Made by a program: the position numbers and the translations under genes. Below, in pieces: positions 23,360-64,000 of a stretch of DNA of 64,000 nt (position 1 is the stretch's first letter; each line of letters opens with the position of its first letter). The notes beneath the pieces were generated by a model, which was given only the letters and a program-made list of their open reading frames with translations, was not told the DNA's origin and did no database searches. Source of the DNA: Nemertoderma westbladi (lineage: Eukaryota; Animalia; Xenacoelomorpha); contig JAUCBJ010008093.1 of assembly GCA_032718475.1 (NCBI GenBank), positions 3,258-67,257 of the forward strand, written 5' to 3'.

Positions 23360-23360
23360 T

Positions 23361-38448: not shown

Positions 38449-38895
38449 ATGACTCAGTTGATAGAAGATGATCTTGGTATCAGGGAGAAATATACTCTAC
38501 CGTTGCAAGCGTTTGTTGATAGCTTGATACGCAGCGACGCTAGTCCAACTACTATGGAGGACGATGGTCGTTATATCGAACCGCCGATGTCCCAGGAGCA
38601 ACTTACGCGTGAATTGGACTATCGAAAATTCACTGCTAGCTATACGCATTGTAATGGTACGTATATGGACTTCTTAACTACTGGCCATCCTATCGATTTA
38701 TACGATACGGACGATATCGACACTGAAAGGGAAATGGTCCTGTTTAAATATCATACCCAGCGGAGTCGGAACGATAAATTGAGAATCGAATGCGAAAAGT
38801 CTATTCGAAATCGACTCGAAAGAGAAGACGTTAAAGAACCGGATAAACGCGGTAACTCCAACGTATATTTGGAATTCTTGAGAGAAACATTGTAA
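38449..38895 (+). CDS. Accessory ORF of element A (unknown function; 3' part degenerate)
   Basis: Its first ~125 aa closely match ORF 41655..42053 of element B (M T[Q/E]LIEDDLGIRE[K/R]YTLPLQAFVDSLIR...). Confidence 0.6.
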   Translation: MTQLIEDDLGIREKYTLPLQAFVDSLIRSDASPTTMEDDGRYIEPPMSQEQLTRELDYRKFTASYTHCNGTYMDFLTTGHPIDLYDTDDIDTEREMVLFKYHTQRSRNDKLRIECEKSIRNRLEREDVKEPDKRGNSNVYLEFLRETL

Positions 38896-40646: not shown

Positions 40647-42053
40647 CTAGCCAGAGTCCTTTTCTCTTTGGGGGCGAGCCACTATACAAGGAGGGCTATA
40701 ACTCCTGGGTGAAGGGTGCAATATGATTGCATCAGAGGGTGTAGGATTATGGTCGGTGTATCCGCCAGTCGAAGTACCGGGTTGATTGACATCAACGTCC
40801 GGGGAGAGGGGTCTAACGGCTTTGAGAGCTCGTTTCAAGACAGCCGCTCTTACGGGTCCTTTACGAGTGGTCTGAACGAGGGCCGTGGGTGGACCATAGG
40901 CAGTTAGAAACCTCCAGGGTTTAATGGTCCTTTCCAACTCGCGTTCGCGGGCTCGGTATTCGTAAGGCCGTCGATGTACTTCCTGTAACTCGGGGTGTGA
41001 GTTAACAAACAAGTCTCCATAGTCCGGATCCTGACGGATATAATTGATTAAGTTATAGGAATGAAGGTCGCTAGGATTAACACTCCTGAGAAATTTGCGT
41101 ACGAATTTAGTTGAAATACATTCTCCGACGCGCTTCAGTAGTTCGTAACTCGATATGCGTGATTTCTGTTCGACAGAAGCGAATAGATAAGGATGGAACG
41201 CATAAATTCCTTCATAAGCGCGTCCAGGATAATAACGATGGCGCGAATCACAATGTAAATCAGCGTTCGCTTCCCAAGCTCTGATGTAACGTAGTGTGAT
41301 CATTTCATCTACGCTTTTCAAATCGTGATTAAAAGGGCAATCGAAACTGGCGCGTCCCTTTAGTTGACAATGGTGACATTGAGTCATAAATTGAGGGCAA
41401 ACCGCAAAAATGTGCAAGTTATTGAGTCTGCAATACGCACAATAAATTTCCATCACCGGTTGTTCGTGGAAATAGGAACAGCGGACGTTTGTGTCCATGG
41501 GCGTAACATGGTCTCTCGATGCGCATAACCGACAACGTTGCCGAGAAACATAGTTGGCATGGCGATAATTGGACGCAGTGAGACACTGTGGACCTTGATA
41601 CCATTCTAGGATGTAATCGTTGTCGCTGTTCCGGGCGCGATAGGCTGAATCTCCTCAGATTCTAGGCATATTGGTTCGTCTTCCCAGTCTGTTACGAATA
41701 GAATTTTCGTGATCTATTCTCGGTTTATCGTTCCGACTCTGCTGGGTATGATATTTAAATAGAACCATTTCCCTTTCGGTGTCTACATCGTCCGTATCAT
41801 GTAAATCGATAGGATGGCCGGTAGTTAGGAAGTCCATATACGTACTATTACGATGCGTGTAGCGAGCGGTGGATTTTCGATAGTCCAATTCACGCGCAAG
41901 TTGCTCTTGGGACATCGGCGGTTCGATATAACGACCATCGTCCTCCGTAATGGTTGGATCGGCTTCACCGCGTATTAAGCTATCCACAAATGCTTGCAAA
42001 GGTAGAGTATATCGCTCCCTAATACCAAGATCATCTTCTATCAACTCCGTCAT
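40647..42053 (-). CDS. Accessory ORF of element B, about 468 codons with one in-frame TGA (41655-41657) and three Zn-knuckle-like motifs
   Basis: ORFs 41655..42053 and 40647..41498 share a frame, and the sequence between them is open (GDSAYRARNSDNDYILEWYQG...CRLCASRDHVTPMDTNVRC). Further motifs: CAYCRLNNLHIFAVC and CHHCQLKGRASFDC. Confidence 0.65.
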
Positions 42054-43676
42054 ATCTGCTATCTGAGTTTATAAATATCAAATGAGTTTATATTTAGGCG
42101 AGCGGGCGTTGCTGCCTACTTCTCTTTGCCCCCGGGCAGTGGGATTCTCAGCGCCGATGTACCGTCGTCGCGGTGTTTACGCCAACATGTAGCAACATCA
42201 CGACAACGATAACCGGCACAAGTCACTCCACTGTCCATCCCAAAGGCTTGAATCAACTTTAGGTTCTTTCTATAGGAGAGTTGGGCTACTTTCACAATTG
42301 CGACTAGCTACTGTAAACACACCTTAGCAGTAACATTCACCTATAAACGCACAAATTCCACACAACTGTCACCAATTGTACACATACAGGCCATTTGTCC
42401 GTTAGTCAGTGCCTTCCAGAATGTCACGTTATTACTGTGTATCCTTGGATACTAGCAGTGTGCTATATTCTCTATGCTATGCAATGGGACAAGCTTTCTA
42501 TTGTTCTTTTAACTTGCTTCTAATTCTAGCGTGGGTGTTGCTATGGTGACATTATGGAATGCTAGCGGTAGAATTAGGGTAATTCTCATGCATACAGATC
42601 TGGGATGCTATTTAATAATAATTCTTTAATTGTCAATATCCTCTTTATGCATGATTTTATTAATTTTATTGGCTATTGACTATATGTCGGAGATTCTCGC
42701 ACTCTAATACACTCAATAGGATGAATCTCCGCTCCCATGATCTATTAATTAATGGAATTTTGGGAATGTTATAAATTGTACAAAATGACAATTTATGAAA
42801 TTCATTTAAAATATGAATTTAAATTTATTCCCGTGAATTTTATTATTTGATGTTAAAATTGACACAATTTGATTCCAGAGCAGGTCTGGGGACATAGGAT
42901 CCTTAATTCTATGAAATTTGTCTTTTAAGAGTATCGGTAAGTGCTACGATATCTTAATCGACTAGAATTGTTAACGGATCTGAATTTTACAGATTTTAAT
43001 AAATATTAAATTAATATTTAAGATGGGCACCGATTTATTCCAGAACTTGTCTGGGGACGTTAACCACTGATTCTAGAATTTGTCTTTCAAGTATATCGGT
43101 GGGTGCCACGATATCTTAATCGACTAGAATTACAGATGGTCAAAAAGTTTAACAGATTTATTTGCGATTTACGCTACTGTTAGAGGGACATCACGCTACT
43201 ATATGTATTATTTGTTATAAGGTAGAAGAGCAATATCGCACGAAGCAATGTCAGTGTGAAGAGGCAAGTCGTTTCCAAGGTCTACCCAGAGCTTGGTTTA
43301 GCCGAGACCCGAGGATCTGAACTTTGCATTCCTAATACTCTGCCTACCAATAATACTTGAATATAGTAGTGGCTTTATTGTACTTTAAGAAGTACGGACA
43401 TTTCATCTTACTGTAGTCACGTATTTATAATATGATACGGACAGTAAGGGAAGAGAAAAATAATTATTTCTCGCCGTCGCACTAAATATATATTATAGTA
43501 ATTATGTACGTAATAAACACTAATATATTGCACTAATCTACTAAATAATCCCTAAAATAACATTCTACTAAATAAAAATTGAATAAAAACGATTATAATA
43601 AAGTACATAATAAAGTTCGCATATAAAATGTAATAAAATAGATAAATAACATAGTCATACACCCACTCCAGACGTA

Positions 43677-45453
43677 TCACGTTTGGGAGTCCCTAGATGT
43701 TTGAGGAATTAGGGAGGTGGTCGTGGGAAGAGTGTCTTGTCTTCCATAGTTTCCAGAGAGTTCTCTGTCTCTTTCCAGTAAACATAAACGACCAACTGGG
43801 CGATTGAGTTGTTGCGTCTCAAAGATTATACCGGGCTTCTTGAAGTTACGCCGCATAACAATGAGTTCTACTGAACGCACTAAACCATCCTCCGAGATAT
43901 GGGTCTCGATGATACGACCTGTCTGCCACCGTTTACGTGGGAGGTCTGGATCCACAATAAGTACCATATCTCCGGCGCTGACGTTTTCCTGCTGCGCAAA
44001 CCACTTAGTTCGAAGTTGTAGCGTGGGCAGGTAATGTTTCTCGAAATGGTCAGCGAAACGACGGGATAGCAACTGCATAAGTTGCCAAGTTCGACGGCAG
44101 TATTCGTCTCCGTCGGCAATCTCCGATCGTGGGAGCATGGCTACCGGTTTCTTCAGTAGAAAGTGCGCAGGTGTTAGCGCTTCCAGGGAATCGGGACTCG
44201 ATGAGACTGGCATAAGCGGTCTCTCGTTGAGATAGGCAGCTATTTCCTCCATTAACGTCCGCAAAAGTTCGTCGGTGAGATACGCACGGCATGGCACTAT
44301 AAAGTGAAATGCGGTCTTAACACTTCTAATTAATCTCTCCCAACTTCCTCCCCACCAAGGGGCGTCGGCGGCGTTGAAGGTCCAGCTAGACGCTGTTATC
44401 CTTAGCTGGTCATCCACCTGTCTTTGGTTCCAGTCCTTTACGTAAGCCTGTATTTCGTTGTTGGCACCAATGAAGTTCGTTCCCTTGTCCGATCTCATGG
44501 TATTACTCGTACCGAAGCGAGCGATCTGTCGTCGTAAACTTAAGACGAAACTGTTGGTAGATAGATCGTTCACCATATCGAGATGGATGGCTCTACAAGT
44601 CATGCACACGAAGATGACACACCATCTCTTGACTATAGTCCTCGCACGATATACTTCAATAGGGCCAAATAAATCTACACCAGTATTAGTAAAAGTTGGT
44701 TCATAGAAGCTTACTCGTTCCCTAGGTAATTCTGCCTCTCGCTGTGTTAAAGGCCTACTGAATGCTTTCCTACAGGGTATGCAGTTCCTAAGAACTTGGT
44801 TCAGAGCCCTACGGGGTTTATCAAAATAATAGCGAGTTCGAATTTCGCTAAGAACTCGTTCTCTTCCAGCATGATAAAGCTTACTGTGAACATCTACAAT
44901 CAACTTGATTTGTACTTCAAGATTTCTAATGAGTATGGGGAATTTAGTGTCAAAGGATAAGGGTGCATTGGTTAGCCTTCCTCCAACACGTATTAACCCA
45001 TCTATCATTGTGCTAGAGAATCGATCCCTTAAGCGCATCTGCGGATTTCTCAACAACAGGAAATACTTTTCGGAATCCTCATAGCATTGCAGGAGTCTCA
45101 GTATCTGTTTATTAGTCTCTTCATGCTCCTGGTGACTAATTTTCTCCTTTAGAAAACTGTCAGACACCTTGTATTTAGGTAAGTTTTTAATAACATGAAC
45201 TTGTGCAGATGTCAATGGAGCGTTATCACTAGTGGTCTTCGCCCTGGAGTATTGATGATGAAAGCATCTCTTTAAATATGTGACGGCTTTACAGAGCCGA
45301 TTCCAGGAACTGTAGTGATGCATCGCTCTCTGCAGCAGGGGTGAGATTCCTTGCGAGACGTCTGGTATTCCAGATTTCCAATCTCTATCTCGAATTTCCG
45401 CAACAGACTTATTTATAGCGAGGGATTGTGGATCCAAATCATTGTTTCCGGAA
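43677..45453 (-). CDS. BEL/Pao integrase region of element B (5'-truncated pol)
   Basis: H..H..CIPC, GVDLFGP, SDKGTNF, WWGGSWERL, YLNERPL; uninterrupted frame. Homology to A stops near 45453. Confidence 0.9.
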
Positions 45454-45801
45454 ACCGGTCCCACCCCCGTTTGGACACAGACGGTAACCTGGTGTTTGCA
45501 CTATTGCCAAGTTCCAATAGCGTGAAGCTGCACTAAGTTTATAACGACTTTGACTTTAATCTATTTTATTAGAGTTTTCAGTCTAACTAAAACCCTATTT
45601 TCAGACTTTTTATTTTTTGTTTAAATATTTTAGTACAAGAAAACGACTAAAATACCGTATTTTATGTACTGCACTATTTTCGGTTACAATTATTTTGGAT
45701 TATTTTTCGAGGCTATACTTTGGATCCTAATGGACCCAAAGCACCCCTCACCCCCGGTTTCTCTTTTTCCCTCTTCCCAGAGGTTTTTCTATGGTGTTAC
45801 A
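45454..45801 (-). repeat. Possible LTR fragment of an unrelated element
   Basis: Minus strand starts TGTAACACC at 45801 and contains AATAAA; it replaces the 5' part of B. No second copy is present to confirm it. Confidence 0.3.
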
Positions 45802-46078: not shown

Positions 46079-47386
46079 TCAATGAATACTGCATTTGAAA
46101 GCGAACACAGCGATCAGAGAGAAAATAAATGGCAATCCCAAAAGACTAAGAAGCGAACAAGCGATTTCCATTCCAAAATAATCATTGAGAAAGCCGCCAA
46201 AAATGGGTCCAATAATAGCCCCAAGAGAGAATGCAATTCGCATCAGTTGTTGGATAAGAGCCCTCGTGTCAACATTATCAGGATAACCACAAACTTTGAC
46301 AGCCAGTTGTGTTTGTGTTTCCAGTGCAGGAGTTACGTATAATCCACCCGCGAATCCAAGGAGAGCACATCCAGCAATGGAGATACCGAGATAATGGGGT
46401 AAACCCAGGAGTTCCGTAGGTCCTATTAATTGCATTGATACTGCAAATAACATTGCCCCAAATGCAGTTGGTATGATATTCTTCAATTTCTTCATCATTA
46501 GGGATATTGTTAGTCCAGAGGACACTAAGACACTCGGGAATACCATGTAAATACGACCAATATTGTACTGGTTTACATTGTAGTTGTGGTAAATGTAGGC
46601 GGCATAGTTCGTAATCGTGAAGGCTGCAACTACTCTCCAATAAGTGTTTAAAATAAATATAAGTGTGATTGCTGGATTCTTCAGGACTCCAAGATAAGTT
46701 GGTCTGTTTGATTCACATCTGTCATGAATATAAGCTGGCGACTCCATCCAGCAGTAAAGGATGATAATAAGAAACATCAAACCTGATATTATAAATGGGA
46801 ACTCAAAGCCCAATGAAGCGAAAATAGTTGACCCAAAAACTGGTGAAATCATAACTCCCACGCTGTCACAAACAAATGCTAAACTAGTTAATAAGGTCCT
46901 TTGGTGTGGCCACACCTCCATCAATAGACTGTATGAAAACATGAAACTGATATTGAGTCCAACAGCTTCAATGATGCGCAGTGAAAAACATGTCAATATA
47001 TATAAAAATCCATTGCTGTTGTTTGGAATATATTCTACAAATCCAAATGCCAATTGGGAGACAGCCCCAATAATGCCAAATAAGCCCAAAGAGATACGAA
47101 TTCCCCAATTGTTGATAGAATGGGGAAAATTAATGTATATTATTAATCGAACAATTGAAAACGTTGCCAGTAATGCACCAATCAGAGTCTTCGACCAACC
47201 ACGTTCTTCTACAACTATTGGGAAGAATGACTCCAATAGATTCTGACACCAACCTGGTATCATTTGATACATTAGCAACATGGTCACCAACATGTAAAGT
47301 CTCCAGCCCTTTTGATAGACATTCTGATTTGTCCCAAATATATTTCTTTCACATGAGATAGTAGTGGGAGCCACTTCCTCTGGCAT
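46079..47386 (-). CDS. MFS transporter, SLC18B1-like, intronless (435 aa)
   Basis: About 12 hydrophobic segments; SLC18B1-type motifs FFPIVVEERG, LRIIEAVG, GFEFPFIISG, LIGPTELLGLP and FSLGAIIGPIFGGFLNDYFG. Confidence 0.82.
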   Translation of the reverse strand: MPEEVAPTTISCERNIFGTNQNVYQKGWRLYMLVTMLLMYQMIPGWCQNLLESFFPIVVEERGWSKTLIGALLATFSIVRLIIYINFPHSINNWGIRISLGLFGIIGAVSQLAFGFVEYIPNNSNGFLYILTCFSLRIIEAVGLNISFMFSYSLLMEVWPHQRTLLTSLAFVCDSVGVMISPVFGSTIFASLGFEFPFIISGLMFLIIILYCWMESPAYIHDRCESNRPTYLGVLKNPAITLIFILNTYWRVVAAFTITNYAAYIYHNYNVNQYNIGRIYMVFPSVLVSSGLTISLMMKKLKNIIPTAFGAMLFAVSMQLIGPTELLGLPHYLGISIAGCALLGFAGGLYVTPALETQTQLAVKVCGYPDNVDTRALIQQLMRIAFSLGAIIGPIFGGFLNDYFGMEIACSLLSLLGLPFIFSLIAVFAFKCSIH

Positions 47387-49610
47387 CTTGTAAACCTAGC
47401 AGCCAAAATATTGATAGTTAATAATTACTTTAACCAACAACAAAAATATAAAACATAAATGGTATAAAAATATCTGATTTATATAATATGCTTTATGTTG
47501 TGCTAATAACTTTGGAGGTCTGCACTTTCGAGTTCAAAATTTGTACTTGAGTACTGTAGGCTAAGACCGAAATTTGAGATATTATTACGTCAGTTCAACA
47601 GACGCTCGCAAGAGGGCTACATGACTAAACAATAAATGTCCTCCCATTCCTTTGTTACTATTCCGTTTAAATTCAACATTGGCAGAAATGTAATAGTCCA
47701 GTAGCTCTATTTTTGTAAGGAGGCTAAAGTGAAAACCTTTTAACTCAGATTTCATCTTTTAAAATCTACAAAATCTTGTGCGTCGTTCAGGCGCACTGAT
47801 ACTTCTGCAGTGACCCAGAACGTCGTTAGAGAATAAAATTGAATCTGTACAGGAAATTCTGGAAATCTGTTCAGGGTAGTTCATAGTATGTTTATAATCG
47901 TTACGAGTGTAAATTATCGAGTCGTTCTGCTCAATATCTCACGTGCTGCACGAATCGCCTCCAAGTACCTTATTACATCAAGAGGAAAATTTATTCGACA
48001 CCGAGAAACGAATCCCAACAGATAGGAAACCCTGATGATGGAACAAGACAGGAAGGGACCATTCTCAACCTGGTAAAGTTGAGTGAGAGAGTTGGTGGTA
48101 TTGGTAAACTGTACTAGAGAGATATAACATTTGGTCGCTAACGGCAGTGGGAAAGAACATAGTGGGGATAGGGGGGAGGGGGGGGGGGGGGGGGGGTAAG
48201 AAATGGACAAGAAAATTAATCAACTGACACAGGACAGGGCTTAATAGCAGTCTATAAAATGTTCTTTTTCGGTCTTATTACATTACATCTTATTACCAGT
48301 ATTACCTTTACCCCTAAAGAAAGTGAAATTTTCTCGAAAATGTACAGAATTTTCAACTCTGTAAAGCAATACTTTTTAGAACATGACTCCAGATGAATGA
48401 CTCGGGGTAGTAATGCTGATGGCCCAGCTACCAAGAAGTGCTTTGCTTGCCAAATTTAGGTAAGGCCGTGTTTGTTCTGTCACTACCTCTCAGACTCTTA
48501 GCAAAATGAATTGGGCATTATTGTAATCTATACAGCTGTAATCTAATACTGTAGCTGTTGTATTTAATTAAATCGTCATTGACCAATAATGGATTTACAT
48601 TTTTGGGGTAGCAAATCTGCACAGATTTTGGCAATTTATGGGCAGATTTTGTCGATAAATTGGCGTTAAAAAGAACAAAATGCAGTTAAATTTCTGGAAA
48701 ATAGTGTTGCAACCCCCGGAGTGGTGCTGTTTCCGAAACACCAAAAAACTTCGAGGAAAGTTGCAACATGTCGATTTCTATAGCTGTACAAACAAACTGA
48801 CAAACAGACAGACAATACGAACTGAGCATTTTTATATATATTAGATTAATATTAATATAACATAATTTATAAGATAGTTTATTACGTAGATTCATTCGCA
48901 TGTATTGTCTCCCATTTATAGCATTGCAGCTGTTGTTTGTTGGTATGTTTCAGTGTTCAGAGGGGCGTCCCTTAGCTCAAACTACAGTATTTTATTGGTA
49001 TTATATCTATATCTCTATTTCAAATAGAGAATAAATTTACTTTTTCATTAAATATTACGTTGCAATGCGAATAGAAACTGGTATCTGAAGAATTTATTAA
49101 CTCCCTAACAGTTTTTCTAGAAATAGACCACTGGACTCTGTAGTTGCACAACAGATTGTCAGCTTAGTAGCGCTGTAAAGATAGACTTTGTTGTCATGCG
49201 GGGTTCCAGCAGAATTACATTGTTCTCTAAAAGTTTGAGTTTCTGGTAATGGCTCAATAACTATAAACAATCTTCGGTTTTTAAACTGATAAATTACAAC
49301 GTATATTTGAACTAGAGCGCTGAAAATGAATGCCTGATCTTCCATTTCAATTGCCAGACGAACAGTCTGGGCTGTCGTTTTCCCGTTTTTCAACAATAAA
49401 CGATTCTCCAGATGGTTCATAAGAAATATCTTCGTCATCTAAAACAAGGACACAGTCTACTCCACCGAATAAATTGTTTCAATCTTCACTTCAATGGAAA
49501 ATTATATGTAAAAGTAGTTCTCTCGTTTAACATCAAGGGAATATGGGACGACATCCAGGGCAGCTGATTACACGCAAAAACAAAACTGTATACCTCCTGT
49601 TCTTCTATTG

Positions 49611-49820
49611 AGTCTCGTTTATTGTTTTGTTTAGAATAACGTCGCCGCTGTAACCTGCTCCTGTGAGCCGATATATGTATTCGCCGAGATAGGATTAATG
49701 GCGAAAAATAACCACAAACGCAATGTTTAGTTAGACGGTTTAAAAAAGTAATTAATTTTGATTGACATTAAGGGGAAAGGAGCAGGTTACAAATTTCTAA
49801 CCAAAACAATAAACGAAACT
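49611..49820. mobile_element. Small inverted-repeat element (MITE-like)
   Basis: CGTTTATTGTTTTG...TGTAACCTGCTCC is mirrored by GGAGCAGGTTACA...CAAAACAATAAACG. Confidence 0.55.
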
Positions 49821-50160
49821 TTATTTGACTTGCGGCCAATTTGCGCTGGGGATCACTTTTTTCACTTGCGATAAATTTTCGCAATAATTTGAAACATATA
49901 CTTTATAAAGTAACTATCAGGAACCGACTTCCAACTATTCAGTAGATTGTACAAAATTCGTAAATGTGTGGGTTGCTTAATAATATACTGTACAAACATC
50001 ATGGTGTTATTTTTTTTATTGGTGTGATAGCAAAGAATTAAGTTTTTAATACTATATTGTCCAGATAGAGAATACTGATAATTTGAAGAGTTACAATTTT
50101 CTACACAAAATTACCCAATTCCCGGTTCCGGAATAAAAAAGAAAACCATAATTATATAAA

Positions 50161-52953
50161 CCTTGGGATCTCTTCCGAGACCGCAAACCCACAGTGGCCC
50201 CCATCGAAGCTGGTCAACTAGAAACACATTTCGAAGATCTCCTAGGCTGCGCCAATGATCCCCCGGACTGCCCAAATATACCTTACACTACAGAGCAGGA
50301 AAGGACTGAACAGGAATGGTTTAACGAACCAATCACAGGGGCTGAAATTAAATCAGTAATCAATGAGGCTGCAAACAATAAAGCCAGTGGACCCGATCGA
50401 CTATTTTACGAGCATCTGAAGCAAGGGCTGCCTATCATCCTAACTTTCCTCACTCTGATCTACAACGCCTGTTTAAATGTAGGAACTCTGCCTTGTATTT
50501 GGCTCGAAAGCTTTATCATTATACTCTACAAGGGAAAAGGAACCATAACAAATCCTGACAATTACCGAGGGATCGCACTTCTATGTGTACTTCTTAAGAC
50601 CCTGACATCCATAATAAATAAGAGAATTCGTTTTAATATCCCGCCGACCTCGATACCTCAGGAGCAATTCGGGTTCACTCCTGGAAGGTCTACAATGGGA
50701 GCCATTAGTCAGTTAATAAGCGATATCGCAGAAGCTCTGAAAAGCCCTAACCCTAAGAACCGAAATACTTATGTTTTGTTTGTCGATTTCCGAAAGGCCT
50801 TTGATTCAATCAGCAGGTCAGTGCTACTATGGAAACTACACAATTTTGGCATCAGAGGTAAGATTTACGACCTAATAAAGGCGTTGACTCATAACAAAAT
50901 CCGAATATTTGATGGCCTCAGACTATCGAATATAATAAATCAATTACGTGGAGTTTTACAAGGGGACTGCCTATCACCAACCTGCTTCATTTTATACATC
51001 GCAAACCTTGCCAATGCTATTCGAAACGCCGTCGCCCTCATAAAGTTTATATTTTATGCCGATGACTTGGCAATCTATGCAAGTAACCGCGAAGACATTC
51101 AACTTGTATTAGACATTTTGTATAAATGGTGTGTAGCCAATGGAATGAGTGTAAATCTAGTCAAAACAAAGGTTGTAAAGTTCAGAAGGGGTGGCCGATT
51201 GGCCGCTACCGATATGTTCCACTACGACAATAAACCGGTGATTATTGCTAATCAATATGAATATCTTGGGGTCACTCTTCAGTCGTCCTTGAGTTTCACC
51301 GAGCACATAAAGGCAAAAAAGAAATCAGCCTGTAGCGTCATCGGCTCCCTTAACAATCTACCTCTACTGTCTACTGAAACTGGCATAAATGTGTTCCAAA
51401 TGAAAATCTCCCCCATAGCTTCATACGCAATTAAGGAAATTGGTAAATATCTACGGCTACAGCATCTTAAAGATTTGGATATTATTAAAACAACCCACCT
51501 CAAACGAATGCTAGGGCTTCACACATCTGCCTCCTCGACACTTTGCCTGCGCCTCCTCAACGAGAATTCGTTTGTAGAGGACCTCGCCGTTAAGGGGGGG
51601 GTATACCCCCCCCTAAGGTAAAATTTTCAAATTATTGTTTCTATATTTCACCTAGAGCAGAATTTAATGAGGATTACAAATCTGAAAACCGCTTAGTGAG
51701 GCCTCTTTCAGTTCTCGAGTTATCACTGTTTTTCCGTATGATGGTCTGTCCGTCAAATTGTAAGAAAGACAGAAGACCGACAGACTGACAAATAGACTAG
51801 ATTCTACCAAAAATTAAAACTGACATCGGAAATGAAATCAGCGACCCCGAAAACCCAAGTAACGAACATTTTAGCTTGTTGGTGTGCATCCTTCGTGCCA
51901 GAAATAATTAACCAACCAGAACACAGACAGCCAATTTTGGCGGGACGGTTTAAACTTTGAAGGGCATTTTCTCGGAATGACTTTTTTCATTTTCAAATTA
52001 CTACTCCTCCGTCATTTTTCAACCAATTTTCTTCGTTTATGGCTCATTCGAACGAGCTTAGGAAGCTCTTTAAAAGTTATCTTATGGAATTTTGATAAAT
52101 ATTAAAATTTTTTCTAATTAGCCATTTTTAATTAAAAATATGATAATTAATTAATTAAATTAATTAATTAAAATAAAATTGGCTAATTAAAAATTCTATA
52201 AGATAACTTTTGTAGAGTCGATCACGCTGAGTCCAAAAAAGTTGGTTTCAAGAAATTTGGACCAAAATTGAGGGACTAGTAGCAATTTTAGTGAAATCTT
52301 TAATTCCGCCGCCAGCCGCTAGGGGGAGGCTACAAATTTTCAAATTTTCCTATAAAGGCTATTTGGCCTTCCATACAGTGGTTGACCTTGACAAAATAGC
52401 AATATTATCATTTAACAGTAATTGACAGCCATTTTAAAAAAAGGTTCATGGGGGGGTATACCCCCCCCTTAAGTTCCCAGGAGCATTTAACGTGGAGACT
52501 CTCTCTGCATACAGAGAGTTTCGCGCCGAGAGAGATGCAAACTTTGTCGCCGAACAATACTCCGATGGCCCAGCTTTCTCCTCGGCAACGTGGAAGAAGC
52601 CTGGTCAGAAGAACCGGCACCTGGTCGCGCGAGCGACAGCCCACGGATTTCACCACAAGCTGTGTCTGAACAACCGGGGGTTCCATGAACTCTCCTCTAG
52701 CTGCGTCTGCAGATTCTGTATGGAATCGTCCCAGTCGCGTTACCATGCGCTTCATTGCCCTCAATGTCCTCCTCTCTCGGTGCTGTCACTCTCATAAATT
52801 AGTTTCCTTCACAACACGGCTCGCCCCACAAACAGACAATACTTAACTGGTATTATCTTTTATCATGCGGTTTTTTTTTTTTTTTACTAATAATCACTAT
52901 TTAATCAAATTTTACAATTTTTACCCCGGCTGGGGGTGTATCTTTAAATATAT
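50161..52953 (+). mobile_element. 5'-truncated LINE (RT plus C-terminal Cys/His motif), interrupted by a MITE
   Basis: RT motifs NYRGIALL, QFGF, FVDFRKAFDS, GVLQGDCLSP, FYADDL and YEYLG. After removing the MITE the frame continues (DLAVK|FPGAFNVE...CVCRFC...HALHC) to 52797. TSD ATAATTATATAAA at 50148-50160 and 52954-52966; the empty site is in the paralog at ~61858. Confidence 0.92.
51594..52468. mobile_element. MITE with TTAA TSD and G-initiated palindromic TIRs (Kolobok-like)
   Basis: TTAA|GGGGGGGGTATACCCCCCC ... GGGGGGGTATACCCCCCCC|TTAA. Confidence 0.88.
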
Positions 52954-53378
52954 ATAATTATATAAAGAAAAAACAATAATAAGATTCTCCAAATTTAATT
53001 GACGAACTTTATATGAATCTATTTACTTTATCATACATCAATATATTAATATACTTGAATTACAAAATATAGTTTGAGGGACGAAGGATTACTGTATGTA
53101 CATATAATAATATACATTGTATATGAATATTGCGTGTTCAGTTAATTAATTACTACTTAAATACTTAATAACAAATTACTAACAAATACTAGTAATGTAA
53201 TAAAATATAATGAATTATTATTGTTCCTAACATCAACAGGGGAGATTTGTTTTTGAACTTTATCAAGTTCGGCTTCAGTATTGTGGTTCAACAAATTGAT
53301 TATTATTACTAGTAGTACAGTATAAACGACTAGACAACCTGATTATGACACATCCCAGTGATTTTATACACAGAAACA

Positions 53379-56105
53379 TCAGGAAATATTAAAGGAATCG
53401 GTTTCTTTGCAATACGACACCGCATTACTCCCACTCACGTGGCAACCCTCCAGCAACTCTCGAGGTATCGGCAACCCCCGCGTACTAAAGTACCACTCCA
53501 AGTAACTCGCCTGCCAGTCTTTATACAGAGGATGATCCGTACCGTGGGTGGACACAAACATTCTACCGCACTCCTCCAGGAAGCCACCCGCCGCGCTCAT
53601 ATTACCGGCGTACAACTCCAACGTAGCAACACGGAACAACTGCACGGATAACTGAGGGTAAACCTTCGGGTAATAATGTCTGTAACCAGACAGATTGCGC
53701 TTGGCGTACTCTAAAGCTTCGCTCCAATACTTTAAACCTACGCAAGCGTCAGTGGCTTTATCACAAATCTTTAAGTAAACTAGGCTGATCGGAGCGACAA
53801 TTCCTTCGCAACTGTTAATAAACTCTTTCGTTATTTCGTAAAGATTTCTTTCTGACTCAGAATTAGTTAGTTCTTTTAAGATTACTTCACCTTTCTCTAA
53901 CAGAGATGCTCCTTTTTCTTTTTGCGCCGCTATCGCTCCCACAATGCAATCGCATCCATCGCAAGTAATCGTTGTATCGTTAGGAATCATGGGTAACTTA
54001 CACGTAGTGCAAGGACACACTACGTAGCTATCTCTTTCATCAATTTGAGAACAAAGCGTGCAGCTACAACGGAATAAAAACTGTTTACTTAACCGTCTCT
54101 GGATCTCTTTACGACTCGAGAGAAGATCTACGTAGGATATCGAGATTTCGGCATTCATATCCAGGTCTTCAATGGCGCGCAGGTCGGCCTTCAATCCGTT
54201 GTAAACGACGGCGCAGTTGGGTTGACAGTCGTGGTTCACTAAAGACAATTCGGGGTAGACGCCGTAAGCAATATTCACTGCCATTTCGAGGTCTGTGATG
54301 GTGAAGGTGTTGCAGAGGACAGAACCCGCCAGTCGCTTTATCTCATTGTCCGAACGGTCCGTGGAAGCCATGGATTTTACTAACTCCAGTATCATCTGTA
54401 GATCCATAGAGGACAAGGGTTGGGAGCATAGACCGATGGGGGAGTTTGGGATAGCGGATTGGTTAGCGGTGGGTTGTTCCTTGGATGCATCGAGTTTCCG
54501 CAGAAGACGACTGACCAATCGGATGGTCTCGGGTGGTTGGCTGGGTTGATGGGTCGGTTGATAGAGGTGACGAAGAGCACGACACTCCCCACGGTGCTGG
54601 GAATGCCAATCTCGCGTTTGACACTCAGTACTGCAGTACCACGACAATTTGCAACCCGTGCAGCGTTGCAGTTTATGAGATGTTGAACCTTGCCGCAAAC
54701 AACAGTCGCATCGTTGGCCCTTGAACTTATTAAGGATGACGTATGCGTATGGTTTGCTACTAAGCAACACGGTCCCCATAGATACATTATCTGTGGTACG
54801 AATACCACGTCCCCGTCCTGGGATAGAAAATACATTGCACAAATGTGGATCCATACTGCTATTACCCCCTTTTGAAGATCCTGACCGACTTGTGCTCCTC
54901 AGCCACTTTGGATAAATCTTAGGAATAGTAGGAACAGTTACATTTTCTGTTTTATTGTCCTTTGATCCCCCTCTACTTTTGCTTCTTTTACCCCTTTTCG
55001 AAGATCCTCCTCGACTGTTGCTTCTTTTACCCCTTTTCGAAGATCCTCCTCTACTTTTGCTTCTTTTACCCCTTTTCGAAGATCCTCGTCGACTTCTGCT
55101 TCTTTTACCCCTTTTCGAAGTTCCTCCTCGAGTTTTGCTTCTTTTACCCCTTTTTGAAGATCCTCCTCGACTTTTGCTTCTTTTACCCCGTTTCGAAGAT
55201 CCCGATCGACTTGTGATCTTCAACCAATTCTTTGGATAAATCTTAGGAATAGTAGGAACAGTTACATTTTCTGTTTTATTGTTCTTTGATCCCTCACGAC
55301 TTTTGCTTCTTTTACCCCTTTTTGAGGATCCTCCCTTTTTGCTTCTTTTTACCTGTTTTGGAGATCCTCCTCGACATTGGCTTCTTTTACCTTTTTTCGG
55401 AGAGCCACCTTGACTTTTGCTTCTTTTACCCCTTTTTGAGGATCCTCCCTTTTTGCTTCTTTTTACCTGTTTTGGAGATCCTCCTTGACATTGGCTTCTT
55501 CTACCCTTTTTCGCAGAGCCACCTTGACTTTTGCTTCTCTTACCCTTTTTAGGAGAACCTCCTCGACTTTTATTTCTTTTACCTATTTTTGGAGATCCTC
55601 CTAGACTATTGCTTCTGTTATCCCTTTTCGGAGATTCACCTTGAGATTTGCTTCTTTTACCCTTTTTCGGAGATCCACCTTGGGTTTTGCTTCTTTTAAC
55701 CTTTTTTGGAGATCCTCCTCGACTTTTGTTTCTTTTACCTATTTTTGGAGATCCACCTTCAGTTGCTTGTTGTAGATCAACATCACCTAAGTAATAAGTT
55801 AAATAATAAATAAACAATAATTACGTCATCATATTATTCGTTTAATATTTTATTAATTGATGAGGTAATATTGATCTACTACTACATTCGTGACTCATAC
55901 CTTGTTGCCCTTGTATAGCAACACATCCTTGATTTAGTTGCCACCCTTCGGGTGTTGGCATTGCGATTGGTCCTGATAATAGCCTCCAATCGTCGCCATC
56001 TTGCAAAAGTGGAAGGCCATTCCTTTGTCCTGTGGCTGGGCTCATAACGCTTACAGACTCTCCAGCAACCGTTGTCCCTTTAGTTTTTGTTTGATTCTTA
56101 GACAT
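53379..56105 (-). CDS. SMYD2/3-like SET-MYND lysine methyltransferase with N-terminal basic SPKK-like repeat domain; two exons (56105-55901, 55786-53379), about 870 aa
   Basis: GRGRGI, MYND (CDCC..CTGC..YCSTECQ..H..EC), SET (NHDCQPNC, EISISYVD), post-SET FRCSCTLC and a helical C-terminal domain. The phase-1 intron CAAG/GTATGA...TTAG/GT joins ORF 55842..56105 in frame. Confidence 0.85.
54865..55760 (-). repeat. 39-nt coding repeat (KSRGGS[P/S]K[K/R]GKRS), about 20 copies, with two NKTENVTVPTIPKIYPK spacers
   Basis: Seen directly in the translation of ORF 53379..55817. Confidence 0.92.
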
Positions 56106-56566
56106 CCTTGTTAGAATTTATATCATATGTATGTAAAATCATCTATAAAATCATCTGTCATTTATATGTAAAATATCATATAAATTATCTCTACTCTAAT
56201 TAATGTCTGTCAAAACACATATTTTTTATTACATTAGTCAGAAAGATAAATTATAGCACCGATTCTTACATTACTACTGTAGCTACCGGTACCGGTACCT
56301 TAAAAACAACAACTATCATTAAAAAATGATAGCTAACATCTCCCAAAAGGTGAAACGTATGTTTTAGAACAAAAGACCTCATGAAAATAGCCAAAATGAT
56401 CAAAATTTTGGGTACCGGTAACTGGTGTATTGTAGCCTAATGCCCCTATTTCATGCAGCCAGCTTGGTATGTTTATTTTTTATAGCTAGTTTTTTTTAGA
56501 AATTCTTCTAAGACATATTAAATATTTCTTAAAATTGAAAATTATCCATGACCGGGTACTTCTTAT

Positions 56567-57321
56567 GGTACTAGTGTGTTATAGCTACACCCCCCTCAAA
56601 ATTTTTATTACGAGCTAGTTTTTGCTATTTCTTTTTTTTGAAATGTTCTAGAACATGAAATACATTTGAAAAAAAATAATAAAATGTTCTAGAACAAATA
56701 TTTTTTGTTCTAGAACAAAAAATTAAAAAATCATACAAATTTTATTTTTTGTTACACTAATGCCGCCACGCCAAACTCCACATTCTAAGGCGAAACATAG
56801 GTATCAAGAGGTCAACTTTCGCCCAACAGCTAGCAGAGTTTAGGTGGAAGATGTTACACAAAGAACATCCATTTTCTGATCTATTGCATTTGATTAGAAA
56901 ATAATACCCGCTGCGCGACGTCTGCTAAATAATAAATATTACACAGTATATGTATTCTAAGCATTAATCATTAATTTATCTATGTAACTAACTACCTGTA
57001 TCATTAATTTCTGAATATAAGGACCTCAATAAAGTGAATTTTTAATTTTAATCAGCTATTAAAAAAATACTAGCTCTTTCTAGCTTTTCTAGTTCTGAAT
57101 AGCTAACATGTTCTAGAACATTATTAAAAAAGAAAAATAGTACATTAATTTTTTAAATTTTTTTAAATATTGTTCTAGAACAAAAAATATTTGTTCTAGA
57201 ACATTTTATTATTTTTTTTAAAATGTATTTCATGTTCTAGAACATTTCAAAAAAAAGAAATAGCAAAAACTAGCTAGTAATAAAAATTTTGAGGGGGGTG
57301 TAGCTATAACACACTAGTGCC
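56567..57321. mobile_element. MITE with long TIRs and 8-bp TSD (GG termini, Merlin-like)
   Basis: TSD CTTCTTAT on both sides; TIR GG(T/C)ACTAGTGTGTTATAGCTACACCCCCC... Confidence 0.85.
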
Positions 57322-58840: not shown

Positions 58841-61349
58841 TAATACCCCTAGAACAGTTGTTATAATAAAACTGTATAGCAACAAGCACCACGAATATAC
58901 AGCTATATGTTAACATGCTTTGTTAAAGAAATCCAATAAAAATGTAGGCCTACCTACCTAAGGACAAATTATAAATGGTTATTTCCTAACTTTGTTGAAT
59001 ATTCTGGAATTGCTATTTTTCCAGTTGGTATGATAACTAATTAAATGGCGAATAATAATAATACAGTTATTACATCACCTCCTGTGCCGTAGGCCTATAT
59101 TCAATCAATTCAACAACAACTTCCCTTAAACAAATGGCAACCGACATAGACGAAGAGCGTGACAAAACCATAATGTCTTACGGCGATCTCATACTGTAGC
59201 TACTGTAGTATTATCCAGACACTGTTGTGTTTTTATAAGAAAATATTTATGGAAATTAAAGTATTTTTCAAGTTAATGTGCTAGAATATAGCATTTTCTA
59301 CGAAATTTTGGAGAAAAAAAATTTTTGGAGAAATTTAGGCTTAACACTTTTGGAAAACTTAATATTTGGCAAAACGTCAACCTGTTAAACCATTAAATTG
59401 TCAAAAGTTGTCATACTTGCAAAAAGATGTCAAAAGATGTCAAGCCACACAATTATTATGTGGATTAAATCTTTTTTGCAATATTATGTGTGTTTTAACA
59501 CTCTTTGACTTATTACAAATCCGGATTGTGGCTTAACTTTCTTGTATTTTTAAGGCATTTTTTCGTATTATTGGGCAATAGGATCTCATAAATTAGGTAG
59601 CTTACACTTTCCTCTATCGAATGATACCAAAAACTCAATTTCGACAAAATGTGGGATAACACCCTATTATTGCATAACACCGTCCAGTTGGTCTAAATAC
59701 CACCTCAGTTGCCTTACCTCATACAGGAATAAACACCGTAGATTTTATATATTCACGATGATTTAAGTACAACTGACATGTTGTTATTTAAATTAGAAAG
59801 TGTACATGTAAATGTTAATTAATGTAAATATTAAGCCTAATAGGAAAGTGCTACAACATAAATATGCAAATGCCCATTGCTATGGTAACAATAAGGACTT
59901 CACTGGTGATCATAACGGTAAACTACTGTATGTATACTAACCAACCGAGATATAAACACATGGACGCAGTTGAAGTATGCAGGCCTACAATATGACTTTT
60001 TCGAGATTTTTTGCAGATTTCCAATAGTTTTCAAGTGTCATGGCAACAGAGTCAGACCTACTTGGTCTTTACTTAATTGTCTGGAATTAACAATATTCAA
60101 GGTATTTGACCCTCAATGGATTTTATTTTACTTTCATGGTAACAACTGCATTTCACATGACGAAACATTTCAGAAGGTCATAATTTTCTTGCTTCCATGG
60201 TTACGGGGAGGCTGCCAATTAGTTTCAATGGAGCCACTGCTAGAAAATGAAGAGTGTGACATGCACAATATATTTATAGTTTTTCATGATTTTGAACACG
60301 TATTGGGTAACGGTTTAAGAAATTCCTGATATTTACCGTAAAAGGACGTTTTATGAAGTAGTTGCCATGGCAACCGGGTTTTGAAAATACCACAATCGAT
60401 TCTCTGATGGCGATTTAGTGGGGAGTAGGTAAGGGTTATTATTCTGTAGGAGTCTTGGAAAATTATGCTTTATAAATGACCCCCTGTAGCCATGGTAATT
60501 GGGACTCTTTCTTATTAATATGCGGATTTTTCGTGGAACCATTGATTTTGATATTCACATAACTTTTGCGCTTCGTAGTAGCAATTTTCTTGCTTTTGTA
60601 AATTTTTTGCATATTTGCCATTTTAATAGCATAACAGACTCAACTAGTATGCAATATATTGTATACCCTATGGTAATACAGATCAGCTAGGGGTAAATGT
60701 GAAGTTAATTACCGCAGATTTATAATAATACTACAATATTTCCCTCAACTCGAAGTAGCGGTAAAACCCCATGGAATATGTCATGTGCGAATTATCGTAG
60801 GCCCAACCCGGACACTCCCTGCAGTGCAGTGCCTAAGGGGGGATGTGTTCATTTATCACTCATGTACTGTATATAAATTATTGGGGGGTAATGTAATCGA
60901 AGTTGGTACAATCCGGCATGTAATAAAGTTCTTTATTGCGTGGTCAATAATGTACAGTGCAATGTTATTTTCCCTATACTCGATAAATTCTATGTACTGT
61001 AGGGGATCTACCGAGCCAAGAGAGATTGATAAAGAATTGAAACCCTAGTTAAAATATGGTCCACGTTATTTAATCCGTGAACCGGGATTAAAGGGTTGGG
61101 GGGGGGGGGGGGGGGGGGGAAACTGGCTTTCAAATGTGAGTCTCGTTTATTGTTTTGTTTAGAATAACGTCGCCTTTGTAAATAAATTTTCGCAATAATT
61201 TGAAACATAAACTTTATAAAGTAACTATCAGGAACCGACTTCCAACTATTCAATAGATTGTACAAAATTCGTAAATGTGTGGGTTGCTTAATAATATACT
61301 GTACAAACATCATGGTGTTATTTTTTTTATTGGTGTGATAGCAAAGAAT

Positions 61350-61736
61350 GCTACGCCGGGTTCATTGTGTCAAGTACAATGCACACATCTCCAACCAGAC
61401 ACTATATAACATTGGAGGTGTCTCATTGGTTCCCCCAAGCTTGACACTAGAACAAAATCGCCTCCGCTTTGCAGGACATTGCTTTCGCCGTGAGGACCAG
61501 CCAGTGCATAATCTTGTACTTTGGCAGCCTCATGGAGTGAATAAGCATGGTGGACAGCCCATGACTTTCTTGAGACGCATCTTAAAGGACACTGGCCTTA
61601 AAGATGCGGATGATCTAGCAAATGTCATGGGTGATAGGGAGTTGTGGCGGTGCAATTTTGTTGACAAGCCGGCACAGTATTCGTAAAAATGCAGCTGCAA
61701 TGCAGCATGCCGATCCTAGTAGTAGTAGTAGTAGTA
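61350..61736 (+). mobile_element. RTE-like LINE 3' fragment with (TAG)n tail
   Basis: RLRFAGHCFR...LVLWQP...DRELWR; TSD GATAGCAAAGAAT at 61337-61349 and 61737-61749; the empty site is at ~50026. Confidence 0.88.
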
Positions 61737-62206
61737 GATAGCAAAGAATTAAGTTTTTAATACTATAATGTCCAGATAGAGAATACTGATAATTTGACTA
61801 GTTAAAATTTTCTACACAAAATTACCCAATTCCCGGTTCCGGAATAAAAAAAAAACATAATTATATAAAGAAAAAACAATAATAAGATTCTCCAAATTTA
61901 ATTGACTAACTTTATATGAATTTATTTACTTTATCATACATCAATATATTTATATACTTGAATTACAAAATATAGTTTGAAGGACGAAGGTTTACTGTAT
62001 GAACATATAATAATATACATTGTATATGAATATTGCGTGTTCAGTTAATTAATGAACAAATTACTAACAAATAATAATAATAATGTAATATATGTTCAAG
62101 TTCGGCTTCAGTATTGTGGTTCAACAAATTGATTATTATTACTAGTAGTATAAACGACTAGACAACCTGATTAGGACACATCCCAGTGTTTTTATACACA
62201 GAAACA

Positions 62207-63688
62207 TCAGGAAATATTAAAGGAATCGGTATCTTTGCAATACGACACCGCATTACTCCCACTCACGTGGCAACCCTCCAGCAACTCTCGAGGTATCGGC
62301 AACCCCCGCGTACTAAAGTACCACTCCAAGTAACTCGCCTGCCAGTCTTTATACAGAGGATGATCCGTACCGTGGGTGGACACAAACATTCTACCGCACT
62401 CCTCCAGGAAGCCACCCGCCGCGCTCATATTACCGGCGTACAACTCCAACGTAGCAACACGGAACAACTGCACGGATAACTGAGGGTAAACCTTCGGGTA
62501 ATAATGTCTGTAACCAGACAGATTGCGCTTGGCGTACTCTAAAGCTTCGCTCCAATACTTTAAACCTACGCAAGCGTCAGTGGCTTTATCACAAATCTTT
62601 AAGTAAACTACGCTGATCGGAGCGACAATTCCTTCGCAACTGTTAATAAACTCTTTCGTTATTTCGTAAAGATTTCTTTCAGACTCAGAATTAGTTAGTT
62701 CTTTTAAGATTACTTCACCTTTCTCTAACAGAGATGCTCCTTTTTCTTTTTGCGACGCTATCGCTCCCACAATGCAATCGCATCCATCGCAAGTAATCGT
62801 TGTATCGTTAGGAATCATGGGTAACTTACACGTAGTGCAAGGACACACTACGTAGCTATCTCTCTCATCAATTTGAGAACAAAGCGTGCAGCTACAACGG
62901 AATAAAAACTCTTTACTTAACTGTCTCTGGATCTCTTTACGACTCGAGAGAAGATCTACGTAGGATATCGAGATTTCGGCATTCATATCCAGGTCTTCAA
63001 TGGCGCGCAGCTCGGCCTTCAATCCGTTGTAAACGACGGCGCAGTTGGGTTGACAGTCGTGGTTCACTAAAGACAATTCGGGGTAGACGCCGTAAGCAAT
63101 ATTCACTGCCATCTCGAGGTCCGTGATGGTGAAGGTGTTGCAGAGGACAGAACCCGCCAGTCGCTTTATCTCATTGTCCGAACGGTCCGTGGAAGTCATG
63201 GATTTTACTAACTCCAGTATCATCTGTAGATCCATAGAGGACAGCGGTTGGGAGCATAGACCGATGGGGGAGTTTGGGATAGCGGATTGGTTAGCGGTGG
63301 GTTGTTCCTTGGATGCGTCGAGTTTCCGCAGAAGACGACTGACCAATCGGATGGTCTCGGGTGGTTGGCTGGGTTGATGATGGTCGGTTGATGAAGGTGA
63401 CGAAGAGCACGACACTCCCCACGGTGCTGGGAACGCCAATCTCGCGTTTGACACTCAGTACCGCAGTACCACGACAATTTGCAACCCGTGCAGCGTTGCA
63501 GTTTATGAGATGTCGAACCTTGCCGCCTGCAAACAACAGTCGCATCGTTGGCCCTTGAACTTATTAAGGATGACGTATGCGTATGGTTTGCTACTAAGCA
63601 ACACGGTCCCCATAGATACATTATCTGTGGTACGAATACCACGTCCCCGTCCTGGGATAGAAAATACATTGCACAAATGTTGATCCAT
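62207..63688 (-). pseudogene. SMYD2/3-like paralog without the basic extension, frameshifted
   Basis: Starts MDQHLCNVFSIPGRGRG. Relative to copy 1 it has +4 nt (~63527) and +2 nt (~63380), with a stop at 63503 between them. Confidence 0.78.
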
Positions 63689-64000
63689 ACCGGTAGCCTA
63701 CCGTCAGACCGTAGTTGATGGTGTAAAAATATAACAAACCAACTCTCTCTACTCCACTACATAAATACAGAAATAGGCCTAGTACTGTAGTACTTTAGTT
63801 AAGCTGTTCAGTTACTGGTAGTCAGCTTCTCAGCTACCTGGCTACACTAGTTACTTAATTCTGTAATTAAAGTACAGAAGTAAATACAGAAATATGGTAG
63901 GCCACCAAGCAGGGATGTCTGCATGTTGTCCTTGACGAACTTCAGCCAAGTCAATCTGTCAATGTTGTACAGTCGTAGGCGAAGCAACAAGTACAAAGTA

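What the first reader, a model, noticed from the sequence alone, without database searches (positions are those of the whole stretch)
53379..56105. Chimeric gene: sperm-histone/protamine-like basic repeat domain fused in frame to a SMYD lysine methyltransferase
Seen: a 68-codon first exon splices in phase to about 300 aa of 13-aa K/R/S/G repeats (GGSPKKGKRSKS, later GGSSKRGKRSKS), which run without a stop into MDPHLCNVF..., a complete SMYD. The neighbouring paralog begins at this same Met (MDQHLCNVF), and homology between the copies stops 2 nt upstream of that ATG. Established: SPKK motifs are phospho-regulated minor-groove DNA-binding units of sea-urchin sperm H1/H2B, K/R/S-rich repeats typify protamine-like proteins, and SMYD2/3 lack such an extension. 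Inference: a young fusion that tethers a methyltransferase to DNA/chromatin (possibly in the germline), or supplies a cis array of lysine substrate/decoy sites. The fused copy is intact while the unfused copy is broken.
Basis: partly seen in the sequence, partly recalled or inferred. Interest (0 to 1): 0.8.

Follow-up and report, generated by a model that had tools for sequence, protein, structure and literature searches.

The report
Methyltransferase pasted into basic-repeat gene
In an unidentified animal, an intact copy of a lysine-methyltransferase gene (SMYD3 type) sits in frame at the end of a 310-residue, strongly basic repeat exon, flanked by a short direct repeat that likely marks a recent insertion into another gene, while the neighbouring copy is frameshifted; if the joined gene is expressed, which is untested, it would give the enzyme a long arm predicted to hold it on DNA.

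Summary
In detail: a 205-nt exon, a 114-nt GT-AG intron and a 2.4-kb exon give one 870-aa frame: 68 orphan residues, 310 basic residues (19 repeat units, net +98), then a complete SMYD3-class domain. The SMYD block (about 2.15 kb, ATG-2 to 9 nt past an AATAAA) is a 97-99% copy of the paralog next door, is flanked by an 8-nt direct repeat (7/8; chance 0.3-1%), and the interrupted host gene appears to resume after it (donor 49593, acceptor 49439). So a SMYD copy was likely inserted into exon 2 of a basic-repeat gene. The repeats are constrained as protein (pN/pS 0.43); the SMYD copies show purifying selection (omega 0.35-0.48); the donor copy is frameshifted. Against: no RNA was examined; only 5 units carry SP(K/R)(K/R); a weak new GT could splice the insert out in frame; sperm function is unsupported. 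Chimeras of this kind are known (jingwei, TRIMCyp); I found no SMYD with such an arm in protein searches or ten literature searches, and the scan had not noted it elsewhere. New variant of a known kind; interest 0.45.

The parts
55901..56105 (-). Exon 1 of the host/fusion gene (68 codons + 1 nt), orphan sequence
   Evidence: no Pfam hit; 0 hits among 1.84 billion representatives
55787..55900 (-). Intron 1, 114 nt, GT-AG, phase 1 (inferred)
54857..55786 (-). Basic repeat arm: 310 aa, 19 units of 12-13 aa, K+R 34.5%, S 21%, G 17%, net +98, pI 12; two copies of a ~30-aa spacer
54856..54863 (-). Left copy of the 8-nt direct repeat (likely target-site duplication); its last base is the first of the duplicated block
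54851..54856 (-). New weak GT donor (GCA|GTATGG, 4 of 9 consensus positions), phase 1, in frame with host exon 3
53379..54854 (-). Intact, intronless SMYD3-class ORF (491 aa): SET split by MYND, post-SET, extra CxxC pair, helical C-terminal domain
49609..53378 (-). 3' part of the duplicated block (about 670 aligned nt) with two later insertions; ends 9 nt after an AATAAA
50161..52945 (+). About 2.8-kb insertion with a reverse-transcriptase ORF (50152-51621, PF00078) and ~13-nt target-site duplication; absent from the paralog
49654..49870 (.). 217-bp insertion absent from the paralog
49602..49609 (-). Right copy of the 8-nt direct repeat (7/8 identical to the left copy)
49439..49593 (-). Likely intron 2 of the host gene (GAG|GTATAC ... 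TTTTAG, 155 nt, phase 1)
   Evidence: inferred from consensus only
49347..49438 (-). Likely host exon 3 coding part (30-aa acidic tail in phase 1), AATAAA at 49098; a 113-aa ORF in another frame (49438-49097) overlaps it
   Evidence: no homologs
61137..63690 (-). Paralog, likely the donor: SMYD copy 98.6% identical in the CDS, +4 and +2 insertions, stop at codon 62; 388-bp insertion at 61350-61736 with 13-nt duplication

Best explanation
A 2.15-kb copy of the neighbouring SMYD3-class gene lies in frame at the end of exon 2 of a basic-repeat gene, where it was likely inserted in one recent event, and the joined gene is likely transcribed from the host promoter into an 870-aa protein whose +98 arm is predicted to hold the methyltransferase on DNA or chromatin. 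Shown: the frame, the block boundaries, the flanking 8-nt repeat, protein-level constraint on the repeats, a deficit of amino-acid changes between the SMYD copies, the two frameshifts in the paralog. Inferred: (1) direction, paralog to fused locus, since only the fused block has a flanking direct repeat and it cuts a repeat unit; (2) route, a DNA template switch to a locus 6 kb away (about 0.6) or retroposition (about 0.4); (3) expression from the host promoter, since the block carries only 2 nt of the donor's 5' flank, with polyadenylation in the copied 3' UTR so that host exon 3 is dropped; (4) the fused copy now supplies the SMYD activity of this pair; (5) the disordered arm binds nucleic acid by charge and through 5 SP(K/R)(K/R) motifs, switchable by serine phosphorylation, so the enzyme is concentrated on chromatin in whatever cells used the host gene.
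For: Open 870-aa frame. Block ends are sharp: 642 matches, 28 mismatches over 670 non-coding nt after removing three inserts. Direct repeat abuts both ends; chance 0.06% with exact abutment, 0.3-1% allowing shifts of 1-2 nt (200,000 random pairs). Removing the block and one repeat copy gives an open host frame and a phase-1 GT-AG intron to a 30-aa exon. Repeats pN/pS 0.43-0.44. SMYD copies: 11 non-synonymous changes in 1146 sites, 9 synonymous in 327, against 15 of 614 in hand-picked well-aligned non-coding blocks; Fisher p 0.025 and 0.021. Both frameshifts are in the paralog, none in the fused copy. Catalytic positions kept relative to human SMYD3: R14, F184, N207/H208, Y241, F261, 8 of 8 MYND and 4 of 4 post-SET zinc ligands (roles). 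SP(K/R)(K/R) binds AT-rich minor grooves and phosphorylation blocks it (PMC9903204). A purine-rich, out-of-frame context before the SMYD ATG makes skipping of the repeats unlikely (sequence).
Against: No transcript was examined, so intron 1, the junction and the tissue are all unshown. With a transition bias of 2-4 the omega rises to 0.41-0.48 and p to 0.04-0.08, which is also what one neutral and one constrained lineage would give, and the changes cannot be polarised: by eye 3 of 11 favour the fused copy as ancestral, 2 the paralog, 6 neither. Zero frameshifts in the fused copy has probability 0.05-0.38 under neutrality. The sequence after the block resembles the repeat unit only weakly (14 of 27; 2% of window positions do as well). 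14 of 19 units lack SP(K/R)(K/R). Human SMYD3 Y124 and N132, which matter for activity, align with Q132 and P139 in a poorly aligned stretch, and Y257 with F259. Other SMYD3 copies elsewhere in the genome cannot be excluded. The paralog's indels could be assembly errors.
Confidence: 0.45

Rival explanations
1. The fusion is made, but the arm is a passenger: the copy survives because it replaced the frameshifted donor and borrowed a promoter; the arm is tolerated or clipped off.
For: Donor broken, fused copy intact; constraint on the repeats could predate the insertion, since unit divergence (pS 0.3) is ten times the copy divergence (dS 0.03); SMYD Met1 is kept as the native start.
Against: 930 nt of slippage-prone repeat are still in frame; a +98 arm is unlikely to be neutral for localisation (inference).
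Confidence: 0.2
2. The insertion knocked out the host gene or landed in a silent one; the long frame is open only because the event is young and in frame by a 1-in-3 chance, and the working SMYD3 is the paralog (indels recent or assembly errors) or lies elsewhere.
For: Divergence is only 2-3%; omega 0.35-0.48 fits one neutral lineage; P(no frameshift) up to 0.38.
Against: Insertion spans exactly a complete CDS from ATG-2; both frameshifts hit the paralog while the fused CDS has none, though its non-coding part took several indels and two insertions.
Confidence: 0.15
3. The insert is spliced out. The GT two bases before the SMYD ATG acts as a new phase-1 donor and joins host exon 3 in frame, restoring a 408-aa basic protein; SMYD sits in an intron and is made rarely or never.
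For: The join 54857 to 49438 is in frame with the acidic exon; the GTAT start matches the two other donors.
Against: The donor matches 4 of 9 consensus positions; 17 GT sites inside the repeats score 6 or more and must already be ignored; 4 AATAAA and 7 ATTAAA lie within the block on the coding strand; it does not explain the intact SMYD frame.
Confidence: 0.12
4. The arm works as a built-in substrate or decoy: its 64 lysines, or the basic chain itself, occupy the enzyme's cleft and damp activity until phosphorylated or cleaved.
For: Protamine binds SMYD2 and SMYD5 and destabilises SMYD2 (PMC13362160); the spacers carry a P-x-I-x-P motif at fusion residues 249 and 357 like the PXLXP ligand of MYND; the -2 pocket has Tyr197 where human SMYD3 has Val195, so specificity may differ.
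Against: 7 of 64 lysines have a hydrophobic -2 residue, 5 of them in spacers; the SMYD part has net charge -1; the motif predates the fusion.
Confidence: 0.08

Closest known systems
Smyd3 class (human SMYD3; PDB 5ccm, 3pdn; class defined in PMC4521844, passages)
   Same: SET split by MYND, post-SET, helical C-terminal domain; Met1 aligns; E 5e-53 to SMYD3 against 1e-42 to SMYD1 and 1e-41 to SMYD2.
   Different: The class has SET-MYND at the N terminus; N-terminal additions in the passages read are TPR repeats or a second MYND. Here 379 residues precede Met1, and there is an extra CxxC pair after post-SET.
Chimeric genes made by insertion of a gene copy into a host gene: jingwei (Adh into yande), TRIM5-cyclophilin A (PMC5470649, passages and first part of section 12)
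   Same: A whole enzyme CDS lands in a host gene, takes its 5' exons and promoter and displaces its 3' end (inferred here).
   Different: Those are retrocopies; here no poly(A) remnant and no intron loss can be shown, the donor is 6 kb away, the junction is inside an exon, and the donor copy is the broken one.
Sperm-specific SPKK histones H2B/H1 of sea urchins and hydrozoans (PMC9903204, passages)
   Same: An N-terminal extension with 5 SP(K/R)(K/R) motifs in front of a folded domain.
   Different: No histone fold; the folded partner is an enzyme; motifs are spaced 13 or more residues apart in a longer unit; most units lack the proline.
Protamine-like sperm nuclear basic proteins (PMC11607694, passages)
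   Same: K+R-rich, repetitive; host model 44 kDa, K+R 28%, pI 11.8, just above the 6-40 kDa range given.
   Different: No winged-helix domain detected; neutral N-terminal exon and acidic tail; sperm location not shown.
SETMAR and PRDM9 (recalled, no call)
   Same: A SET-type methyltransferase joined to a DNA-binding part.
   Different: Their DNA-binding parts are folded and sequence-specific; this arm is predicted disordered and unspecific.

Membership tests
Smyd3 class | SET domain split by a MYND finger | tested here: met
   PF00856 residues 15-241 and PF01753 residues 49-91, both above cut-off
Smyd3 class | C-terminal TPR-fold domain | tested here: met
   Second aligned stretch 345-446 to SMYD3 312-413, E 1e-9
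Smyd3 class | Catalytic Tyr, NH motif, post-SET zinc ligands | tested here: met
   Y241, N207/H208, C210/C263/C265/C268; SET-I residues Y124 and N132 have no clear counterpart
Smyd3 class | SET-MYND at the N terminus, nothing before it | tested here: not met
   Met for the 491-aa module, not for the 870-aa model
Smyd3 class | Placement in the Smyd3 clade of a tree | not tested
   Only scores against solved SMYD1-3; too few homologs were returned (3)
Smyd3 class | Lysine methyltransferase activity | not testable with these tools
   needs assay
SPKK sperm histones | Repeated SP(K/R)(K/R) motifs in an N-terminal extension | tested here: met
   5 motifs in 19 units
SPKK sperm histones | Histone fold or H1 globular domain | tested here: not met
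   No Pfam family up to E 0.1 for exon 1 or the arm, none up to E 1 for either exon-3 frame
Protamine-like proteins | K+R-rich composition, 6-40 kDa | tested here: inconclusive
   Arm K+R 34.5%; host model 44 kDa, 28%
Protamine-like proteins | Major protein of sperm chromatin | not testable with these tools
   needs expression and proteomics
Chimeric retrogene | Target-site duplication | tested here: met
   8 nt, 7/8, chance 0.3-1%
Chimeric retrogene | Poly(A) remnant at the 3' end | tested here: not met
   None at 49609; an AATAAA ends 9 nt before, which 8.5% of points in this flank would show
Chimeric retrogene | Loss of the parent's introns | tested here: inconclusive
   The paralog is itself intronless over the block
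Chimeric retrogene | Chimeric transcript | not testable with these tools
   No run was available to lay on the locus

The most novel reading that the evidence does not exclude
A sperm-chromatin protein has captured a lysine methyltransferase: an SPKK-type basic protein expressed in spermatids now carries the only working SMYD3 of its locus, so the enzyme is loaded onto DNA with the packaging protein and released by serine phosphorylation at fertilisation; a weak new donor lets the same gene also make the old basic protein. Both parents, the scar and the decaying donor lie within 15 kb.
Probability: 0.15. Interest if true: 0.8.

Novelty: new variant of a known kind. Interest (0 to 1): 0.45.

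Why it matters
If expressed, it is a gene birth caught with all its parts in 15 kb: host gene, inserted copy, insertion scar and broken donor. It would also be a natural test of whether tethering by a plain basic arm redirects a SMYD enzyme, whose human counterpart has both histone and cytoplasmic kinase substrates (PMC8267938), onto chromatin; one protein with and without its arm answers that. If not expressed it is an ordinary local duplication that broke a gene.

Tried and rejected
Sequencing runs: no RNA holder listed for 53000-56400; this is no evidence, and no reads could be laid. Homologs: SMYD part 3 hits among 7,993 candidates scored, 25-34% identity; arm region 0 among 7,988 candidates of 440-1402 aa (low-complexity query, weak test); exon 1 0 hits; arm no usable Atlas hit; 20 metagenome loci gave only distant SMYD/MYND matches and none matched the arm or exon 1. 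Structure predictions were too poor to use (pLDDT 45 for SMYD; 41 for the 113-aa ORF); no fold search and no complex prediction were run. The idea that the 113-aa ORF at 49438-49097 is an OTU protease fragment (recalled resemblance) found no support. The idea that Tyr197 equals the SMYD1 V214Y gain-of-function site is wrong: V214 maps to V216 here. My first repeat test (pN/pS 0.36, p 0.003) dropped 4 of 19 units by an amino-acid filter and is biased; one search replaces it. A false duplication of two haplotypes was rejected because the shared block has sharp ends, different flanks and three copy-specific insertions. Pack-type DNA transposon rejected by eye: no inverted ends on the block. Searches of this scan's notes by place, sequence and words found nothing on this gene.

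Full report
1. The observation. On the minus strand an ATG at 56105 opens 205 nt that end in a GT donor; an AT-rich 114-nt intron ends at 55787; the next 2,408 nt are open to a stop at 53379. Joined, they encode 870 residues. Residues 70-379 are 19 units of 12-13 residues with two copies of a ~30-residue spacer, K+R 34.5%, net +98. Residue 380 is a Met that aligns with Met1 of human SMYD3; the following 491 residues match SMYD3 at E 5e-53 and carry MYND and SET above Pfam cut-offs. The window is animal DNA by its content (retrotransposons, a GPCR); no genome is held.

2. The repeats are protein, not a minisatellite that happens to be open. The other two frames of the strand have 9 and 31 stops. 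Over all 19 units pairwise pN/pS is 0.44 in the coding frame (0.50-1.53 in the other five) and 12 of 22 possible synonymous variants occur against 17 of 68 others (p 0.017; units share ancestry, so this is approximate). An earlier count on 15 units was biased by my filter and is set aside. Only 5 units have SP(K/R)(K/R); the units nearest the enzyme read SSK(K/R).

3. How the fusion arose. The shared block continues: 52946-54856 matches 61849-63690, and 49609-50160 matches 61137-61869 once a 2.8-kb reverse-transcriptase-bearing insertion and a 217-bp insertion in the fused copy and a 388-bp insertion in the paralog are removed. The non-coding part then aligns with 642 matches, 28 mismatches and 4 gaps. 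In the fused locus the block begins inside a repeat unit and is flanked by an 8-nt direct repeat, 7 of 8 identical, each copy touching a breakpoint; random breakpoint pairs show this in 0.06% of 200,000 draws, 0.3-1% with 1-2 nt of slack. Taking out the block and one repeat copy leaves an open frame that meets a phase-1 GT at 49593; an AG at 49439 leads in frame to 30 mostly acidic codons and an AATAAA at 49098, giving a 411-aa, 44-kDa host protein. This exon 3 is inferred; the bases after the block resemble the repeat only weakly, and a 113-codon frame overlaps the exon. The reading: a three-exon basic-repeat gene received a copy of the SMYD gene next door. The end 9 nt after an AATAAA and the flanking repeat suggest retroposition, but there is no poly(A), the donor is intronless over the block, 8.5% of points in this flank lie that near a signal, and the donor is only 6 kb away; a DNA template switch is somewhat more likely (inference).

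4. Is the fused SMYD alive? The copies differ at 20 CDS positions: 9 synonymous in 327 sites and 11 non-synonymous in 1,146, against 2.4% in well-aligned non-coding blocks chosen by hand (15 of 614; 4.2% if all aligned columns are counted). Protein-level selection acted after the copy was made (p about 0.02; 0.04-0.08 with transition bias), but omega 0.35-0.48 cannot say on which copy, and outgroups split 3 to 2 with 6 undecided (by eye). The paralog took +4 and +2 insertions and stops at codon 62; the fused copy has none, which neutrality would allow with probability 0.05-0.38. Catalytic and zinc-binding residues are kept; the SET-I residues Y124 and N132 of human SMYD3 have no clear match and Y257 is Phe; SET-I changes had modest effects in SMYD1. 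The block holds only 2 nt of the donor's 5' flank, so any expression would come from the host promoter and scanning would start at exon 1.

5. Mechanism. Most likely (0.45) the gene makes the fusion and the arm holds the enzyme on nucleic acid: SP(K/R)(K/R) motifs bind AT-rich minor grooves and are switched off by serine phosphorylation (PMC9903204), and the rest adds charge. Rivals: arm as passenger on a replacement gene (0.2); silent young insertion (0.15); splicing-out through the weak GT two bases before the SMYD ATG, which is in frame with exon 3 (0.12); arm as cis substrate or inhibitor (0.08). Nothing here shows sperm expression; lysine-rich repeats also occur in non-chromatin sperm proteins such as cylicins (PMC10684152).

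6. Comparison and novelty. The enzyme module belongs by domain order and score to the Smyd3 class; in the passages of the family survey that I read, N-terminal additions are TPR repeats or a second MYND (PMC4521844). The arm works like an SPKK tail or protamine-like protein but fails membership (no histone fold or winged helix detected). The event is of the jingwei/TRIMCyp kind (PMC5470649) without proof of an RNA route. Searches for SPKK with SMYD (1 paper), SPKK with SET domain and methyltransferase (2 papers), SMYD with retrocopy or chimeric gene (52 papers, 20 listed) and SMYD with protamine terms (28 papers, 15 listed) showed no such fusion in the listings; I did not open those papers except PMC5470649, PMC11607694, PMC13362160 and PMC10684152, and the library lacks most subscription journals. 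Protein searches found no relative of exon 1 or of the arm, with limited sensitivity for low-complexity queries.

7. What was read. Passages: PMC9903204, PMC8267938, PMC4521844, PMC11607694, PMC13362160, PMC10684152; passages and sections 2.4 and 2.6: PMC4307310; passages and part 1 of 2 of section 12: PMC5470649. No supplements were opened; the sequence lists of PMC4521844 could hold a Smyd3 with a basic extension. SETMAR, PRDM9, splice consensus, CaaX and OTU motifs are recalled, not from calls.

8. Verdict. Real, well-preserved young chimera by insertion; expression and function untested. New variant of a known kind; interest 0.45, up to 0.8 if it proves to be a spermatid chromatin protein.

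Noticed in passing
window 15343-19176 (-): Intronless rhodopsin-family GPCR frame (PF00001) of about 1,265 aa with 28.5 copies of an 84-bp unit after the fifth helix and six copies of a 30-bp hydrophobic unit near its end.
   Followed up: no
window 49097-49438 (-): 113-codon ORF starting right at the likely exon-3 acceptor in phase 0, overlapping the 30-codon phase-1 reading; its stop overlaps the AATAAA. No homolog in four searches.
   Followed up: partly
window 49570-49609 (-): If host intron 2 were not spliced, the reconstructed host would end after 389 aa in C-F-C-V, like a CaaX box (recalled motif) behind a polybasic region.
   Followed up: no
window 46079-47395 (-): Intronless MFS transporter (PF07690) just downstream of the host gene.
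   Followed up: no
window 26776-36815 (+), 43677-45500 (-), 21770-23419 (-): Broken LTR-retrotransposon frames resembling BEL/Pao (recalled resemblance), with 15-bp and 12-bp tandem arrays inserted at 32503-32729 and 35167-35855.
   Followed up: no
window 38434-38895 (+) and 41655-42068 (-): Two similar ORFs in inverted orientation with a 335-aa Cys/His-rich ORF (40647-41654) between them; no Pfam hit for the two tested.
   Followed up: no
window 56567-56731 and 57157-57321: 165-bp inverted repeat, 95.8% identical, about 460 bp upstream of exon 1; likely a young MITE in the host promoter region.
   Followed up: no
window 53950-54020 (-): Both SMYD copies carry an extra CxxC...CxxC segment after post-SET (residues 280-301) that human SMYD3 and the two fish-like hits lack.
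   Followed up: no
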